From assembly GCA_951406725.2 (NCBI GenBank), contig OX597816.1:66216001-66280000 (forward strand): a stretch of 64,000 bases of DNA. The letters are read 5' to 3'. Both the position numbers and the translations under genes were made by a program. The first letter of the stretch is position 1. The number at the start of each line of letters is the position of its first letter. The stretch comes from Octopus vulgaris (lineage: Eukaryota). Below, piece by piece: positions 18,751 to 60,192 of this stretch. The notes under the pieces were generated by a model, which did not search any database, was not told the DNA's origin, and saw nothing but the letters and a program-made list of their open reading frames with translations.

Positions 18751-20385
18751 CAGTTGCGGCCAAAATGTGCAGAACGACATTGTTTTTGTCAGAAAAGAAG
18801 GTATAAGTTTTTATCAAAGTTGTTTTATATTCTATAATTTTCACAGTCAATAAATACGATATTAATTAGTATTGTCTGAGATTTTGGTGTAATTTGAGTG
18901 GATAATACAAAAGTTATGGATGATTTAGTGATTTACTGTAAAACCCATGGTGGCCAAAATTATCAGAACGGTTGAAAAAATAAAATAATCAAAAGTGACA
19001 GAGAATGCTGGAATTATTTCATATTTAGTGTGAAGCCCTTTAGCTTCAATCAAACTTTGACTGCATGAGGAAATCAAATTTTCAATTTCTTGCTGGGTGA
19101 TCTTATTCCATTCTTCCTGAAGGGCATTCCATAATTGCTCGGTTGTTTTAGGATTTCTGGCTTTCGAACCTTCTCCAGGAGACCTGGATGTTGTCTTTCC
19201 GACTCCAGCACATGTTTTCAATAGGATTGAGATATGGGCTTTGAGCAGGCCAATCCATAACAATAACTTTTTCAGCCTTGAGGAAGTTCATGACCGCCGT
19301 AGTCTTGTGACATGGGGCATTGTCCTGCATGAATATGGGTGGTCGCTTAGTTGAATTTCTCAGCACAGGCAAGACATGATCTTTTACAAGTTGTTTATAA
19401 ACTCCTGCATTTACCTTTCCATGTAATCGCACCAAAGGGCCCACACCATCTCCAGATATCATCCCCCAAACCATGACACTTCCTCCACCGAATTTAACAC
19501 TAGTCTTAAGGCATTTAGGCGACAATTTTTCGCCTGCTTTTCGACGAACGTACCTTTTCCCATCTGAGCCAAATAACATAGACTTAGATTCATCACTGAA
19601 ATGCACCGTTTGCCATTTTTCTTGAGACCACAACACATGTTCGGTTGCAAAGGTAATATGACATTTTTTATTCTTGGAGCTGATCAGTGGCTTCACTGCA
19701 GGTGCTCTTGCTTGTAGGTCATGTTCAACTAAACGACGAGACAGTTTTTTGAGATAAAGTTTTCTTCAGTACAATGCTCATTTCCTGAGAAACAGCAGCA
19801 ACAGTTTTAAATCTAACCCTTTTAACCAACTTTACCATAGCACGATCTTCTCTCTTAATCGTTTTTCTTGGCCTACCTGTAGACTTTCTTGTTTCACACG
19901 AACCACAATCATCGTAGACCTTAAGAATACCGTGAACAACACTTTTTGACTTGTTAACAATCTTTGCAATAGACCCAATACTTAAATTATCCTTCTTTCG
20001 AAGCTTAATAATCTGCTGACGAATTGGTAACGGAGTAAGTGGCATTATATTAACAAAGTACACTGCAGATATTCTTACTAATGTTTAGTAATCGAACTGT
20101 AACGTAAACAAATTCAAAACATTAGAGCTCGACGGTTAAATATACTAAAACATGGAGTAAAAGCAACCGTTCTGATCATTTTGGCCGTCATGGGTTTTGC
20201 AGTAAATCACTAAATCATCCATAACTTTTGTATTATCCTCTCAAATTACACCAAAATCTCAGACAATAACAAATAATATCGTATTTATTGTCTGTGAAAA
20301 TTATACAATATAAAACAACTTTGATAAAAACTTATACCTAATTTTTCTGGCGAAAACAAGGCCGTTCTGAACATTTTGGCCGCAA

Positions 20386-35210: not shown

Positions 35211-36501
35211 CGAGGGACGTTCAATAAGTAATGCCTCTGACTCACTTGCAGTTGTTTGATCTAGCTGAAATTTTGCATGTGCAATCATTTATATCTCTAT
35301 AGAGTAAGTGGCAAATTACAGCTCTGAATTAATTGTGGTTTCTGATTTACAGGTGTTTGAACCGAGTCAAGTGTGAAATGGAGCCTGTTGAGTGTCGAGC
35401 AGTGATCCGGTTTTTGTATTTGAAAGGACGCACACCACGGGAGACTTTTGATGAAATGAAAGTAACTTATGGTGATGATGCCCCATCATATGACCTTGTA
35501 AAACGCTGGCATCGTGAATTCAAACATGGTCGGAACTCTGTGGAAACAGCTCCCAGATCAGGTCGCCCCCTTCTGCCGTTGATGAGGCATCTGTCCATCA
35601 AGTTGAGGCTGCCATTTTGGAAGATCGACGCATAATTATTCGCCAAATAGCCCATGAGGTCAAGATTATTACCGGGTCTGTGGAAACTATCATTCATGAC
35701 CATTTTCATATGCAAAAGGTGTCTGCCAGATGGATTCCCAGGTTGCTCACGCCTTTCCAGAAGCAAGAACGTGTCGAGTGCTCGAGGGTGAATTTGGAGA
35801 TGTGCCAAGAAGATGAGTTAAAATTTTTCAAAAGACTGATTACACAGAATGAAACCTGGGTCCATCACGATGATCCAGAGACCAAAGCCCAGTCAATGCA
35901 GTGGAAGCACCGTGACTCACCCCCTCCAAAGAAGGCAAGGGTGCAGCCCTCCGCTGGCAAGGTCATGCTCACAGTCTTCTGGGACCAGGACGGAGTAGTG
36001 ATGACAGATTTCCTGGCAAAGGGTACCACAATTGCAGGAGCCTATTTTGCTTCACTTTTGAGGAAATTAAGAGAAGTTATCAAAATCAAGAGGCGGGGCA
36101 AGATCAGCAAAGGCATCCTCCTCCTGCAGGACAACGCTCCGGTCCACAACTCGCTTGTCGCCAGATCAGAAGCACAGGCGTATGGCTATGAACTCCTCCC
36201 CATCCCCCCAACTTTCCTGACCTTGCACCCTCTGATTTTCACCTCTTCCTAATCATGAAGTTGTTTTTGAAAGGAAAGCGTTTCCCAGATGATGCAGCCT
36301 TGATTTCTGAAGTCACGTTGAGGTTGGAGGACCAAGCTGGGTTCTTCTACAAAAACGGTCTCCAGAGCCACATCAAACGATGGGAGAAATGCGTAACTTT
36401 GGGTGGTTCCTATGTAGAAAAAGACTAATAACTGTGCAAAGTTTCGTTGCTCTACTGCTATGGGAAGTGGGTCAGGGGCATTACTTATTGAACGCCCCTC
36501 G
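35211..36501 (+). mobile_element. Full-length mariner (DD34D type) inserted at a TA within a family C SINE; transposase disrupted
   Basis: TIRs CGAGGG(A/G)CGTTCAATAAGTAATGCC, TA duplication, 1291 bp. Motifs RSGRP, WIPRLL, ITQNETW (catalytic D changed to N) and LLQDNA. Frameshifts near 35570 and 36200. Confidence 0.97.
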
Positions 36502-41163: not shown

Positions 41164-41294
41164 TTATGTTTATATATATATATATATATTTATGTATGTA
41201 TATATATGTGTGTGTGTGTGTATATATATATATAACAGGAAGCTTTACGAAAATAAATATGTTATTACATATATATATATTTATATATATTTAT

Positions 41295-41335
<41 letters not shown>

Positions 41336-41371
41336 GTATGTATATATATGTGTGTGTGTGTGTATATATAT

Positions 41372-41583
41372 ATAACAGGAAGCTTTACGAAAATAAACAA
41401 AAGACGAAGGCAGGTGGAGTACAAACAAACAATTGTATTAGTATGGTGCTCAGGAATAGAAGTAAAACAAGTCTTTTACGTTTCGAGCCTACGCTCTTCA
41501 ACAGAAAGATACACAGAAAAGAAACACGGAGAGAAACAAGGAGAGAAAAAAAATGCGTGCAGGAGCTAACGAATCAACATGGC
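41372..41583 (-). mobile_element. Element of about 200 bp carrying a hammerhead-like motif (41472-41509)
   Basis: Near-identical to the reverse complement of 58398-58598 and adjacent to a (TA)n tract. Confidence 0.8.
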
Positions 41584-43877: not shown

Positions 43878-44022
43878 TTTTCTCTCCTTGTTTTTTCTGT
43901 GTCCCTTTCTGTAGAAGAGCATAAGCTCAAAACATAAAAGACATTTTCTATTCCTGAGCGTTATACTAATACATCTGCTTGTACACAACCTGTCTTTGTC
44001 TTTTGTTTTTTTCATAAACTCT

Positions 44023-44027
<5 letters not shown>
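43878..44027 (+). mobile_element. Decayed copy of the 200-bp hammerhead-like element
   Basis: CTTT-CTGTAGA-AGAGCATAAGCTC-AAAA-CATA-AAAG, flanked by (TA)n. Confidence 0.7.
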
Positions 44028-44061
<34 letters not shown>

Positions 44062-44095
44062 TATGATAATATAAATATATGCATATATACATACA

Positions 44096-44973: not shown

Positions 44974-45139
44974 GTATTGAAGCTTGAGAACAATCAGATA
45001 CATTTGCAACACATCTGTTGAAAATATTATTGTTCACACACATACATATACATATATACATACAGACAGACAGACAGATAGACACACACACACATACACA
45101 TGATCCAGCATGGCCACAACCTCAAGGCTGAAACATATA

Positions 45140-45520
45140 AAAGAATAACAGAATATAAATGTGTGCAAAGTACAAGAAATATTAATGCAGTATATGGGGA
45201 TTGGACAATAAGCGTAAGGCAGTGTCAATGGTGGTTCCAGAAATCCCGAGCTATAAACTACAGCCTAGAAGACGAGCCTCATCCTGAAAGATCTGTAGAA
45301 CTCGACAAGGACATCCTGAAAACCCTGGTGGAACAAAATCTCATCGTAACTGTTGAGGAACTAGCAGAGAAGCTTGGATTTGATCATTCAACCATTCATT
45401 GAGACCTGTGTGCTATCGGAAAAGTCAGCAAATTGGGTCAATGGGTTCCTCACGAACTTTCCAAGTCTAATTGCATGCAGAGAGTGAATGTATGCTTTTC
45501 TTTGCTGTCACATCTCACCA
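45140..45520 (+). mobile_element. Mariner N-terminal remnant
   Basis: RNINAVYG...SVRQCQWWFQK...SLEDEPH...TVEELAEKL, followed by WVPHEL. Confidence 0.9.
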
Positions 45521-48600: not shown

Positions 48601-49195
48601 TGAGTCATCCCATAAATAATGCAGTATTTAATACTTTCTTTTATTTTTCAAAATTAAGCTAAGTTCTTTTTTAATTTAAAATATACTCTTTCATTTTCTA
48701 CAGTGCTCTTCCACCTATCTGGTAGACTCCAAAATTCACTTGTCCGTGATGAAAAATACTCCTCCAATACTGTTCTCACCTTGTCTGCAGAATTCCTTTT
48801 TTTCCCATCCAAATGATTTTGAAGACTGCAGAATAAATGATAATCAGATGGGACAATGTTTGGCAAATATGGTGGGTGGGGCATCATTTCCCATTCAAAC
48901 TGTTCCAGCCTTTGAAATGTCATCCTCACCATATATGACCTAGCTTTATCCTGATGGAAACACCTTTTGTCTTGAAACCAAAGATGGTCATTTTTCTTCT
49001 AGCGCTGACTTAAGCTTCTCACAGTAGATCTCCTTTGTTATCAAAGTGGACTAAACTTTTCATATCCTACCAAACAGATAACACCTTACGTGGGTGAAGT
49101 CCTTCTTTCACCTGGGGTGCCATTGTTTCTCCTTTCCCTACCCAGTCTTTGGTGCTTGATGTTTTTATAGAGAACCCATTTCTCATCACCAGGGA
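48601..49195 (-). mobile_element. Mariner C-terminal remnant with one TIR
   Basis: WEMMPHPPYLPNIVPSDYHLF motif. Same family as 56626-57818. Confidence 0.9.
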
Positions 49196-56625: not shown

Positions 56626-57818
56626 TTGGGTCCCATAAATAATGTGTTTTTTTTATACTTCTTTTATTTTTCAAAATTAAGATTAAGTTCTTAATCTAAA
56701 ATATACTCTTTCATTTTCTACAATGTTCTGTTTATCTGGTAGATTTGCAAGGCCCCTCTTCCAAAATTCACTTGTTTGGATGTACTGTTCTGACCTCATC
56801 TACAGAATTCATATTTTTTTTCCATCCAAATGATTTTGAAGACTGCAGAATAAATGATAATCAGATGGAGCAATGTCTGGTAAATGTGGCTGAGCATTAT
56901 CCTGATGGAAGAACACCTTTTGTCTTGAAACCAAAGATAGTCATTTTCCTTCCAGTATTCACTTAAGCCACTCAAGCTGCTCGTAGTAGATCTCCTTTGT
57001 TATTGTTTGGTTTGGGTTTAAAAGTTCGAAGTGGACTAAACCTTCCCTATCCCACCAAAACAAAAACAACACCTTTTGTGAATAAAGACCTTCTTTAGCC
57101 TGGGGTTTCACTGTTTCTCCTTTCCCCACCCACTGCTTTTGGTGCTTGACATTTTTATAGAGAACCCATTTCTCATCTCATCACCAGTCACTATTCAGTC
57201 CAAAAAGCGTACAATCGTGAGACATGACAGCAAAGAAGAGCACACATTCACTCTCTGCATGCGATTAGACTCAGAAAGTTTGTGAGGAATCTATTGACCC
57301 AATTTGCTGCTTTTTCCTATGGCACGCAGGTGTCGATGAATGGTTGAATGACCAAATCCAAGCTTCTCTGCTAGTTCCTCAACAGTTATGATGGAATTTT
57401 GTTCCACCAGAGTTTGCAGGACGTCCTCGTCGAGCTCTACAGATCTTCCAGGATGAAGCTTGTCTTTTAGGCTGCAGTTTCTGGCTCAGAATTTCTGGAA
57501 TCAATGTTGACACTGGCTTATGCTTATTGTCCAATTCCCATATACTGCATTAATATTCTTCGCACTTTCCCTTGCGTTGTTGCCCTTATTGAACTCATAT
57601 AGCAAAATATGCCGAATATGCTTTTGTATTACTTCCATTATAGCTTTGAAAAATAACTGTTAAAATCAAACTGCACTCTTCAAAACTTGCACTAAGAATA
57701 AGGACAAGGTAAAATTACTACCTGCTTTTATAGCAGGTTGATGCAGGTAGTTTATCCTTTCCCCCTCCAACTTTTAGTTCATGCAATTGGAAAAACTGCA
57801 TTATTTATGGGATGACCT
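56626..57818 (-). mobile_element. Decayed near-full-length mariner in PDHA1 intron 1
   Basis: Both TIRs (GGGTC..CCCATAAATAATG) present. Interior homologous to the 45140 and 48601 fragments. Confidence 0.88.
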
Positions 57819-58285
57819 TGTGTGTGTATGTATTACGTGAGAGTGTGTGTAAATGTGTGTATGTTTGTCTGACATTATTTGATTCTTATAAATGAATGCC
57901 ATTCATTTTCAATGTTCTGTGAAAGCATGTCTGGCCAGAAGGAAATATTACCTTGTTTGGAAATAGGTAAGGGTTGGCATCTGGAAGGGCATCCAAATGT
58001 AGAAAAATCTGCTTCAGTAAACTCCATCTGATTCATAGCAAGCATGGAAAAGTAGACATTAAGATGATGATGATGATAATACAAGAGGATGACCTAGCAG
58101 TCCTAAAAATTATACTTTCCGATCATGCTTTTAAGATCATTAGTAATATAAGCGAAGTGAAATAAGAACTGATAATAATAAAATGGGTCAAGGTTTTGTC
58201 TTGTTGAGTGTTTACTTTTTATTCTACCAGTGATTGCCATATTATGTGCTTGTGTTTATATTGCATTTTTCTTTGTTCTTTTTAG

Positions 58286-58357
58286 TTCCAAGGAATTCTT
58301 GGAGTTGCCCTGCGTTTTTCATCTTCTCTGGCTGACGAGGCGACATTTGACCTCCAG
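58286..58357 (+). CDS. PDHA1: PDHA1 coding exon 2 (FQGILGVALRFSSSLADEATFDLQ)
   Basis: Polypyrimidine tract plus TTTAG acceptor, CAG|GTTAGT donor, 72 nt, phase 0-0. ADEATFDL matches the ANDATFEI region at the mature N-terminus of animal E1-alpha. Confidence 0.88.
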
Positions 58358-58461
58358 GTTAGTTAACTATATATATATATATATATTGGCCAGAATCGCC
58401 ATGTTGAATTGCTAGCTTCTGCACGCATTTTTTTTTCCTCTCCTTGTTTCTTTTCTGTGTA

Positions 58462-58499
58462 TCTTTCTGTTGAAGAGCGTAGGCTCGAAACGTAAAAGA
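58462..58499 (+). ncRNA. Minimal hammerhead-like motif (CUGUUGA variant), sense strand of PDHA1 intron 2
   Basis: UCUUU-CUGUUGA-A-GAGC guag GCUC-GAAA-CGUA-AAAGA within the element at 58398-58598. Confidence 0.65.
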
Positions 58500-58617
58500 C
58501 TTGTTTTATTTATATTCCTGAGCACCATACTAATACAATTGTTTGTTTGTACTCCACCTGCCTTCGTCTTTTGTTTATTTTCATAAAGCTTCCCGTTATA
58601 TATATATACATACATAC

Positions 58618-58650
<33 letters not shown>

Positions 58651-58763
58651 AGGGAGAAAGAGAGAGAGAAACTGATTGACAACTGAGAGGAAAAACTTAC
58701 TCATGCATAAGCCGAGGCTTTCTTTCAACACTGTTCAGAGTTTTGCTTATTTTTCAAGGTGGT

Positions 58764-58802
<39 letters not shown>

Positions 58803-60018
58803 GTACATTCATATATGTATTTATATTATATATATGAGCAAGTGAAGTAAGTAGGTAATACAAATGAGGTAGGAGTGCAGTCTGCTTCCACCTTAGTAGA
58901 CTGACAGCATATTACAATCACTACAGGAAGAATCAAATTCTTGCTCAAATCGTTAGTCTTGCACTTATTGTGATTTATAGAAAAATATTTGAAACAATAA
59001 ACAGGACCAGTCAGTTATTTAAACTCATTTTTTTTTTTTTTACTTTCTGTGAGGTTAGTGAAATATGTATATCATTGCAGTAAACCTCTGTAAATGCTAA
59101 CTTACCATTGAAAATTTGCTGATATAATTTGGCAAATACCAAGAAAAGTTAAGTAGTTTGCTTTACAACTACCTGCTTTCAGGTTGTGCAGTCACTTGGG
59201 CATGCATTTTCTACCATTAACTTTGATTATGCCTTATGTGTGGAATCTGGTATACATAAACTGTTTGAAAGCACATGATATACTGTATCTGACAGCATAA
59301 AAAATGCATTGTCATATTAGATACACTCCAATATCAGCAGCACATATTCATGAAAATGAGCATCAGGAACAAAATTAGCTTGCAGAAGGCCCAACTTGGC
59401 ATATAGGACCTGGGGGAATTTTTTGGAGGCATTGTTTTGAGGGGAAAAGTATGTCTTATATGCCATCAAATATGGTATATATTTCTATTTATATTGGTAA
59501 AAGATATAAACTTTAATAAGAAGACTAGTGCTTTTTGTATGAGAATTCTCTGTTCTGCCTAAGTCAGGGGGATGTCTCCTTGTCACTCTTGCCATCATAA
59601 ATACTGCAAATCAGTGAAAATTTGCCCATTAAAAACCTGCAACCAATTGTGCTGTTGTTTACATAATGCAATATAAAATACCATTGCAAATAAGCATGAC
59701 TACTCCTATAGTGTACAGTGTTTGTAAGAGTGGACTCTCCACACATCACATCTAATTTATGATTTTTTTACATTTCCCCCTCATTTATTGTCACAAATTA
59801 GAGATGCTTAAAGATTCAGATATTTGCATGATTAGAATGATATTTCCTAATGCCAACTCTCCAAATATGAATCTCATAAGCATTCTATTTTATTTAAGGA
59901 CACTAGTGTTTGAAATTGCAGGTCATTGGTCTTATATTTCTTTTCTAAAAAAAAAATTACTTATGAAATGAATTTTACTGTGTGAACATTATCAAGAAAT
60001 GCATATTTCTTTTTACAG

Positions 60019-60192
60019 CCATTCAAACTCCACAAACTTGAATCAGGACCGTCAACAACAGCCACTCTCACTCGAGATGATGCCCTCACTTACTATAAAC
60101 AAATGCAGGTTATCCGACGAATGGAGACAGCTGCCGGCAACCTCTACAAGTCTAAAATTATTCGTGGATTCTGTCATTTGTACTCTGGACAG
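60019..60192 (+). CDS. PDHA1: PDHA1 coding exon 3 (PFKLHKLESGP...MQVIRRMETAAGNLYKSKIIRGFCHLYSGQ)
   Basis: TTTTACAG acceptor, CAG|GTAACC donor, 174 nt. Contains the IRRME and IIRGFCHL signatures of PDH E1-alpha. Confidence 0.97.

What the first reader, a model, noticed from the sequence alone, without database searches (positions are those of the whole stretch)
58398..58598. Hammerhead-like element in sense orientation about 105 nt into PDHA1 intron 2
Seen: a 38-nt motif with perfect stem I (UCUUU/AAAGA), perfect stem II (GAGC/GCUC), GAAA and a CGUA junction, which would be present in the pre-mRNA of an essential gene. Known: minimal type I hammerheads lacking a stable stem III occur in Penelope-like elements and are thought to act as dimers. 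Inference: it is tolerated either because the A6-to-U core change or monomeric state silences it, or because it cleaves conditionally and affects splicing.
Basis: partly seen in the sequence, partly recalled or inferred. Interest (0 to 1): 0.75.

Follow-up and report, generated by a model that had tools for sequence, protein, structure and literature searches.

The report
Penelope-element hammerhead with altered core
This motif is one of more than 20,000 genomic copies of a jumping-gene end, likely sitting harmlessly in an intron of a core metabolic gene; the notable part is that the whole family carries a change in the self-cutting RNA's core yet keeps the rest of the motif unchanged, so it likely still serves the jumping gene, though cutting is untested.

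Summary
The 38-nt motif is real and lies in sense orientation 105 nt into intron 2 of PDHA1; exons are confirmed by spliced contigs and a PDB match. It is not special to this locus. It is the minimal type I hammerhead in the terminal repeat (pLTR) of a Neptune-type Penelope-like retroelement, and the PDHA1 copy is a ~210-bp 5'-truncated remnant in a (TA)n run. An identical motif lies 17 kb away. U6 is inherited: 22,975 perfect-core U6 copies against 745 A6 genome-wide, and both pLTRs of two long RT/endonuclease copies carry U6. So U6 is no local silencing, and nothing supports splicing control. The real oddity is family-wide. Across U6 subfamilies 0 of 33 ribozyme columns diverge against 4-18 of 78 flank columns, while the free position N7 takes all four bases. 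That points to selection on a core that CUGANGA descriptors would miss and that in-vitro data on other hammerheads predict to be crippled. Cleavage is untested. The scan noted other Penelope hammerheads in this genome, but nothing matching this sequence.

The parts
58387..58598 (+). 5'-truncated 3' end (pLTR remnant) of a Neptune-type Penelope-like retroelement
   Evidence: 93-97% matches over the full 203-nt query elsewhere in the genome; longer copies continue 5' into a GIY-YIG/RT ORF
58462..58499 (+). Minimal type I hammerhead motif with U6 core (CUGUUGA-A), stem II GAGC/GCUC, ACGU palindrome and stem I
   Evidence: fits the published min-HHR consensus except at position 6
58470..58470 (+). 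U6 (canonical A6), fixed in the family
58494..58495 (+). Predicted scissile bond after H17 = A; cleavage not shown
   Evidence: hammerhead numbering applied
58368..58386 (+). (TA)n run at the 5' junction
58597..58650 (+). (TA)n-rich run at the 3' junction; most listed copies end the same way
58286..58357 (+). PDHA1 exon 2 (72 nt)
   Evidence: joint 52423>58284 GT..AG in 4 of 4 runs
58358..60018 (+). PDHA1 intron 2 (1,661 nt), the host intron
41320..41583 (-). Second copy of the same subfamily, with an identical hammerhead motif
43878..44080 (+). Third, decayed copy from the CUGUAGA subfamily

Best explanation
The PDHA1 motif is the minimal hammerhead of a Penelope-like retroelement's terminal repeat, left as a ~210-bp truncated copy in intron 2, where it is likely an inert passenger, while the family's U6 core is likely still used by the source elements. 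Shown: the element anatomy (pLTR with motif, RT, GIY-YIG, pLTR with motif), the copy numbers, U6 as the inherited state, normal spliced contigs, and near-zero divergence of the motif between subfamilies. Inferred: the copy arose by target-primed reverse transcription into (TA)n DNA that ended early. A single copy has no stem III and would need a second copy, paired through ACGU, and probably the element's protein; no partner was found in the part of this gene scanned. In full-length element RNA two pLTR motifs would pair, and either cleave slowly with protein help (about 0.5) or serve as a fold or protein-binding site without cleaving (about 0.4).
For: Copy numbers: 22,975 U6 against 745 A6 perfect cores. 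In the GAGC/GCUC context C6+G6 (532) outnumber A6 (309), as expected if U6 is the master state. L082 has two ~650-bp direct repeats, 93.5% alike, each with the U6 motif, around a frameshifted ORF; L084 is similar. RVT_1 matches at E 1e-6 and 4e-5, both below the curated cut-off. The DKG, CX4CX2C linker and GIY-YIG-like motifs were read from the translations and compared with PMC8557442. 28 of 30 loci picked by the endonuclease region had the motif downstream in sense, all 28 with U6. In a flank-ascertained sample from 1.2 Mb, 59 of 64 hits had the motif; N6 was U 51, A 5, C 3 and N7 was U 25, A 13, C 12, G 9. Net divergence between U6 groups: 0 of 33 motif columns against 4-18 of 78 flank columns above 0.3, permutation p at most 0.0024 in all 6 comparisons. 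Splicing. Poor folding in context. A lizard PLE hammerhead cleaves only with its protein and is dispensable for insertion in vitro (PMC11167929).
Against: No cleavage assay exists for this motif, so both 'inert' and 'still used' are inferred. U6 copies show almost no compensatory stem change: only 36 of 22,975 change both 10.2 and 11.2, and of the 30 fetched 12 pair, against 9.7 in shuffles. Conservation could therefore be of sequence rather than structure. The six sampled blocks were chosen where perfect cores were dense, all on one contig; the flank profile was built from core-selected copies; flank alignments in U-rich tracts are noisy; and the columns are not independent. The tree does not fix the direction of the A/U change: the outgroup branch is long and U6 needs 5 changes. 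Pfam found no GIY-YIG match for the endonuclease piece. Contigs drop rare isoforms.
Confidence: 0.8

Rival explanations
1. The U6 hammerhead is dead everywhere. The family amplified without needing it, and the apparent conservation reflects a short history or sampling bias.
For: All single mutants in the CUGA turn showed low activity in one hammerhead (PMC9901934). A6C strongly lowers Mg2+ activity (PMC3088659, PMC7151607). The hammerhead was dispensable for insertion in vitro. There is no compensatory change within U6.
Against: Flanks gathered up to 18 of 78 diverged columns between subfamilies while the motif gathered 0 of 33, and N7 needs 13 changes on the tree. Copies were found by the 3' flank only.
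Confidence: 0.15
2. The PDHA1 copy cleaves conditionally, in trans with abundant element RNA or with element protein, and tunes splicing or level of the pre-mRNA.
For: The orientation is sense and the motif is intact. Family sequence is far deeper than unique intron in RNA-like runs (summed contig depth, a poor measure), so partners in trans may exist. The insertion is present in two other runs with different organism codes.
Against: Normal spliced contigs. Stem I probability at most 0.1 in context. No second copy found in the part of the gene and downstream DNA scanned. The motif is the same as in thousands of other copies, so there is no sign of local adaptation.
Confidence: 0.04
3. U6 was favoured because it weakens cleavage of host transcripts, which let this lineage reach far higher copy numbers than A6 families while keeping enough activity in its own RNP.
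For: U6 outnumbers A6 about 31 to 1. Retrozymes are depleted from Xenopus introns (bioRxiv 10.64898/2026.07.22.740005).
Against: It rests on one lineage, so there is no replication. Lone A6 minimal hammerheads are already inactive as monomers. Orientation bias was not tested.
Confidence: 0.1

Closest known systems
Minimal type I hammerheads (min-HHR) of metazoan Penelope-like elements (Cervera and de la Pena 2014, PMC4209133)
   Same: Extra nucleotide between A9 and G10.1, G10.1-C11.1 pair, palindromic 15.2-16.2 with no stem III, 4-5 bp stem I, U-rich 5' flank, location in both pLTRs, and mostly solo truncated copies.
   Different: U at position 6. Their consensus is CUGANGAH, and every row in the part of their alignment that I read has A6. 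Their families vary widely within a genome; here stem II and its loop are nearly invariant in over 20,000 copies.
Neptune/Nematis-type EN+ Penelope-like elements (Craig et al. 2021, PMC8557442)
   Same: RT followed by a C-terminal GIY-YIG endonuclease, a CX2-5CxxC linker, pLTRs, (TA)n insertion sites and inverted truncated partners.
   Different: Clade was assigned from motifs, not from an RT tree; Nematis is not excluded.
Natural A6C hammerhead of phage Bcep176 (PMC3088659, PMC7151607)
   Same: A natural change at core position 6.
   Different: C rather than U; a single phage ribozyme that is weak in Mg2+ and active in Mn2+; not a retroelement family.
Protein-assisted hammerhead of Anolis Poseidon element PAc (PMC11167929)
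   Same: A pLTR hammerhead of an EN+ PLE; a model for activity that needs the element's protein.
   Different: A different clade; its motif overlaps the ORF start; its position 6 was not seen in the passages I read.
Intronic CPEB3 HDV-like ribozyme and amniote intronic hammerheads (PMC6765202 passages)
   Same: A ribozyme motif in an intron.
   Different: Those are proposed to act in pre-mRNA processing; this is one of tens of thousands of repeat copies with no sign of local function.

Membership tests
PLE minimal type I hammerhead | Core CUGANGA ... GAAA ... UH | tested here: not met
   All positions match except A6, which is U; family-wide
PLE minimal type I hammerhead | Extra nucleotide after A9, G10.1-C11.1 pair, palindromic 15.1-16.1 without stem III | tested here: met
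   A58474; G58475-C58486; ACGU 58490-93
PLE minimal type I hammerhead | Sits in both pLTRs of a PLE, in sense with the ORF | tested here: met
   L082 and L084; 28 of 30 endonuclease-selected loci
PLE minimal type I hammerhead | Compensatory stem changes across families | tested here: inconclusive
   Clear among 29 distinct A6 copies (e.g. 10.3-11.3: 22 Watson-Crick pairs against 12.8 shuffled; relatedness is not controlled); at 10.2-11.2 not above shuffles among 30 U6 double-change copies
PLE minimal type I hammerhead | Self-cleavage as a dimer | not testable with these tools
   Needs an in-vitro assay
EN+ Penelope-like element, Neptune type | RT with DKG motif followed by C-terminal GIY-YIG endonuclease | tested here: met
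   RVT_1 E 1e-6, below curated cut-off; motifs read by eye; Pfam found no GIY-YIG
EN+ Penelope-like element, Neptune type | CX2-5CxxC linker before the endonuclease | tested here: met
   CX4CX2C in L082 and many loci; definition
EN+ Penelope-like element, Neptune type | RT phylogeny within Neptune | not tested
   No reference RT set on hand
Non-LTR retrozyme | Tandem non-coding units, each with a hammerhead | tested here: not met
   The PDHA1 copy is solo and longer copies run into an ORF; one short tandem of three was seen in L017
Host-regulatory intronic ribozyme | Cleavage or splicing effect in the host transcript | tested here: inconclusive
   Only normal spliced contigs seen; contigs cannot show ends or rare forms

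The most novel reading that the evidence does not exclude
The commonest minimal hammerhead of this layout in this genome has a U6 core that standard descriptors miss, has been kept by selection through successive retroelement subfamilies, and is an active ribozyme rescued by dimer formation and the element's own protein. It would be a natural A6U hammerhead that is switched on only inside the retroelement RNP and stays silent in thousands of host introns.
Probability: 0.3. Interest if true: 0.68.

Novelty: new variant of a known kind. Interest (0 to 1): 0.38.

Why it matters
The PDHA1 site itself is ordinary. The family-level result bears on an open question: what Penelope hammerheads are for, given low in-vitro activity and dispensability in one insertion assay. 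A lineage that changed a supposedly required core base, then held every other motif position fixed while amplifying to tens of thousands of copies, splits the options cleanly. Either catalysis is rescued in the RNP, or the fold has a non-catalytic job. It also shows that CUGANGA-based censuses can miss the great majority of such motifs in a genome (22,975 against 745 here).

Tried and rejected
Rfam: no hammerhead hit up to E 10 in 57000-60000; the hits were unrelated families below their gathering scores, mostly over simple repeats. Folding z-scores were not significant. Run search: no RNA holder listed on record; the four runs laid are RNA by guess, though their contigs are spliced. Presence or absence of the insertion in other organisms: present in X15 and X17, undecidable in X19 and X20 because reads are cut at the TA run. 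Copies starting at the predicted cut: of 20 flank hits without a matched motif, several were sister-family or duplicate-tail hits; two begin at AAAGAC, one of them explainable by TA microhomology; too few to count as evidence. Rooting the subfamily tree: the outgroup was too distant and the direction of A/U is unresolved; the ladder was rooted on an A6 copy by assumption. A U1.7 to loop II contact was considered; the published contact uses A at the fourth loop position and this loop has G. A change count on inner tree branches could not be run, which leaves source-level substitution counts open. Sense/antisense bias in introns was not testable without annotation. Literature on U6: searches for hammerhead + A6U, core variants, CUGUNGA spellings, octopus + Penelope + hammerhead and the scan's own notes found no description. 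Lunse et al. 2017, the largest catalogue of these variants, is not held and may already list U6. Supplement file 1 of PMC4209133 could not be searched.

Full report
Observation. The motif is as described: stem I 58462-66/58495-99, core CUGUUGA plus an extra A, stem II GAGC/GCUC around a GUAG loop, GAAA, then CGUA. It folds as drawn when isolated, but no better than shuffles (z -1.64), and Rfam does not find it. The host gene is PDHA1 (PDB E 2e-36; E1_dh). Contigs from four RNA-like runs of three studies join exon 1 (ends 52425) to exon 2 (58286-58357). In 3 of 4 runs the record coordinates leave exactly an exon-2-sized piece before exon 3 at 60019; the exon 2-3 joint row itself was not displayed. 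The motif starts at nt 105 of the 1,661-nt intron 2, on the sense strand.

What it is. An identical motif lies on the minus strand at about 41,500 and a decayed one at about 43,900. The genome is 2.8 Gb in 227 contigs; an octopus is likely, an inference from its size and from the scan's earlier notes. It holds 4,948 exact copies of a 32-mer. Copies share a fixed 3' end followed by (TA)n and have variable 5' ends. Longer ones run upstream into a reading frame with an RT, a CX4CX2C linker and a GIY-YIG-like endonuclease. L082 shows the whole plan: two ~650-bp direct repeats, 93.5% alike, each with the motif, around a frameshifted ORF; L084 is similar. Pfam gives RVT_1 below its cut-off and no GIY-YIG hit; the clade call rests on motifs described in PMC8557442 (passages). 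The PDHA1 copy (about 58387-58598) is a 5'-truncated terminal-repeat remnant in a (TA)n run.

U6 is inherited. Perfect-core counts are 22,975 for U6 and 745 for A6, with controls of 2 and 0. With the first core half left free, U6 is in 98 of 100 listed young-subfamily copies (A6 in 0) and 91 of 100 older ones (C 6, A 3) (only the first 100 of 7,602 and 4,035 matches are listed). In the same stem context C6+G6 (532) exceed A6 (309). All 28 motifs found in 30 endonuclease-selected loci have U6. Extrapolating from 39 exact matches among 59 sampled copies gives roughly 35,000 motif-bearing copies; this is rough, since the blocks were chosen for density. A sense copy in some essential gene's intron is therefore expected.

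Selection on the U6 motif. I searched 1.2 Mb (six 200-kb blocks of contig 1) with a profile of the 3' flank only: 64 hits, 59 with the motif, and 5 dropped as truncated, false or duplicate. One distant sister copy was removed for the statistics. N7, the free core position, shows all four bases. Shared variants occur in 4 of 30 constrained motif columns against 57 of 93 flank columns (p 5e-6; the flank alignment is noisy). Between four flank-defined U6 groups, 0 of 33 motif columns but 4-18 of 78 clean flank columns show net divergence above 0.3 (p at most 0.0024 in all six comparisons). Against a structural reading: U6 copies show no compensatory change at 10.2-11.2 (12 of 30 paired against 9.7 shuffled), whereas A6 families do covary, and loop II is as fixed as the core. 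The tree places four A6 copies with six U6 copies in one supported group but does not fix the direction. A6 as the older state rests on the sister family and the published consensus.

Mechanism. Shown: anatomy, counts, inheritance of U6, spliced contigs. Inferred: insertion by target-primed reverse transcription that stopped early. Inertness of the lone copy follows from the missing stem III (monomers did not cleave and dimers cleaved weakly; PMC4209133, main text parts 1-2 of 4 and part 2 of 3 of supplement file 2 read), a stem I probability of at most 0.1 in pre-mRNA context, and no partner copy found in the window's part of the gene or the next 59 kb. For source elements, two pLTR motifs could pair through ACGU; a lizard PLE hammerhead cleaves only with its protein and is not needed for insertion in vitro (PMC11167929, passages). 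Position-6 changes lower activity in other hammerheads (PMC3088659 passages, PMC7151607 parts 1-2 of 4, PMC9901934 passages), though A6C stays active in Mn2+. I put protein- or dimer-rescued cleavage at about 0.5, a non-catalytic RNP role at about 0.4, and a relic at 0.1-0.15.

Comparison and novelty. It works like, and sits where, a PLE minimal hammerhead does, but it fails the A6 criterion of that family's consensus. I found no description of a U6 family in five paper searches or in the scan's notes by sequence or words. An octopus repeat-annotation paper does not mention ribozymes in its main text (PMC13282606, word search). Lunse et al. 2017 could not be read (seen only as a citation in PMC6765202, passages) and may contain the variant. 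Other papers seen: bioRxiv 10.64898/2026.07.22.740005 (part 1 of 5 and passages) and PMC11875169 (passages).

Verdict. The PDHA1 placement is ordinary and regulatory cleavage is unlikely (about 0.04). The family-wide, apparently selected U6 core is a new variant of a known kind and worth a simple bench test. Interest 0.38.

Noticed in passing
L131, L137, L154 (contigs 3, 8, 20): A small separate repeat family with a CUGUUGA core, a different stem II and unrelated flanks; three copies seen. It may be an independent U6 motif.
   Followed up: no
G000 contig 1, inside blocks L275-L294 (hits B5_31363 and B5_26057): Two truncated copies begin exactly at the predicted cleavage site (AAAGAC); one is explainable by TA microhomology.
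   Followed up: partly
L047, L149, L168: Inverted pairs of truncated copies next to each other, the arrangement described for Penelope-like insertions.
   Followed up: no
L017: Three head-to-tail short copies separated by (TA)n: a natural tandem in which dimer cleavage could be tested.
   Followed up: no
window 41200-41260 (- strand): The last ~30 nt of the element's 3' end is repeated after the (TA)n tail of copy B.
   Followed up: no
window 19148-20084 (-), 35518-36252 (+), 45082-45402 (-), 48654-48998 (-): Broken ORFs that look like Tc1/mariner transposases; the label is recalled and comes from no database call.
   Followed up: no
window 58180-58600, runs X19 and X20: In two other coded organisms related motif copies are abundant, with no listed U-to-A difference at position 6, while the young subfamily's 3' flank is nearly absent. 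U6 appears older than the young subfamily.
   Followed up: partly
L032, L038, L045-L047, L112: A sister family with the canonical A6 core (CUGAAGA), the same stem II and different flanks; a natural control for assays.
   Followed up: partly
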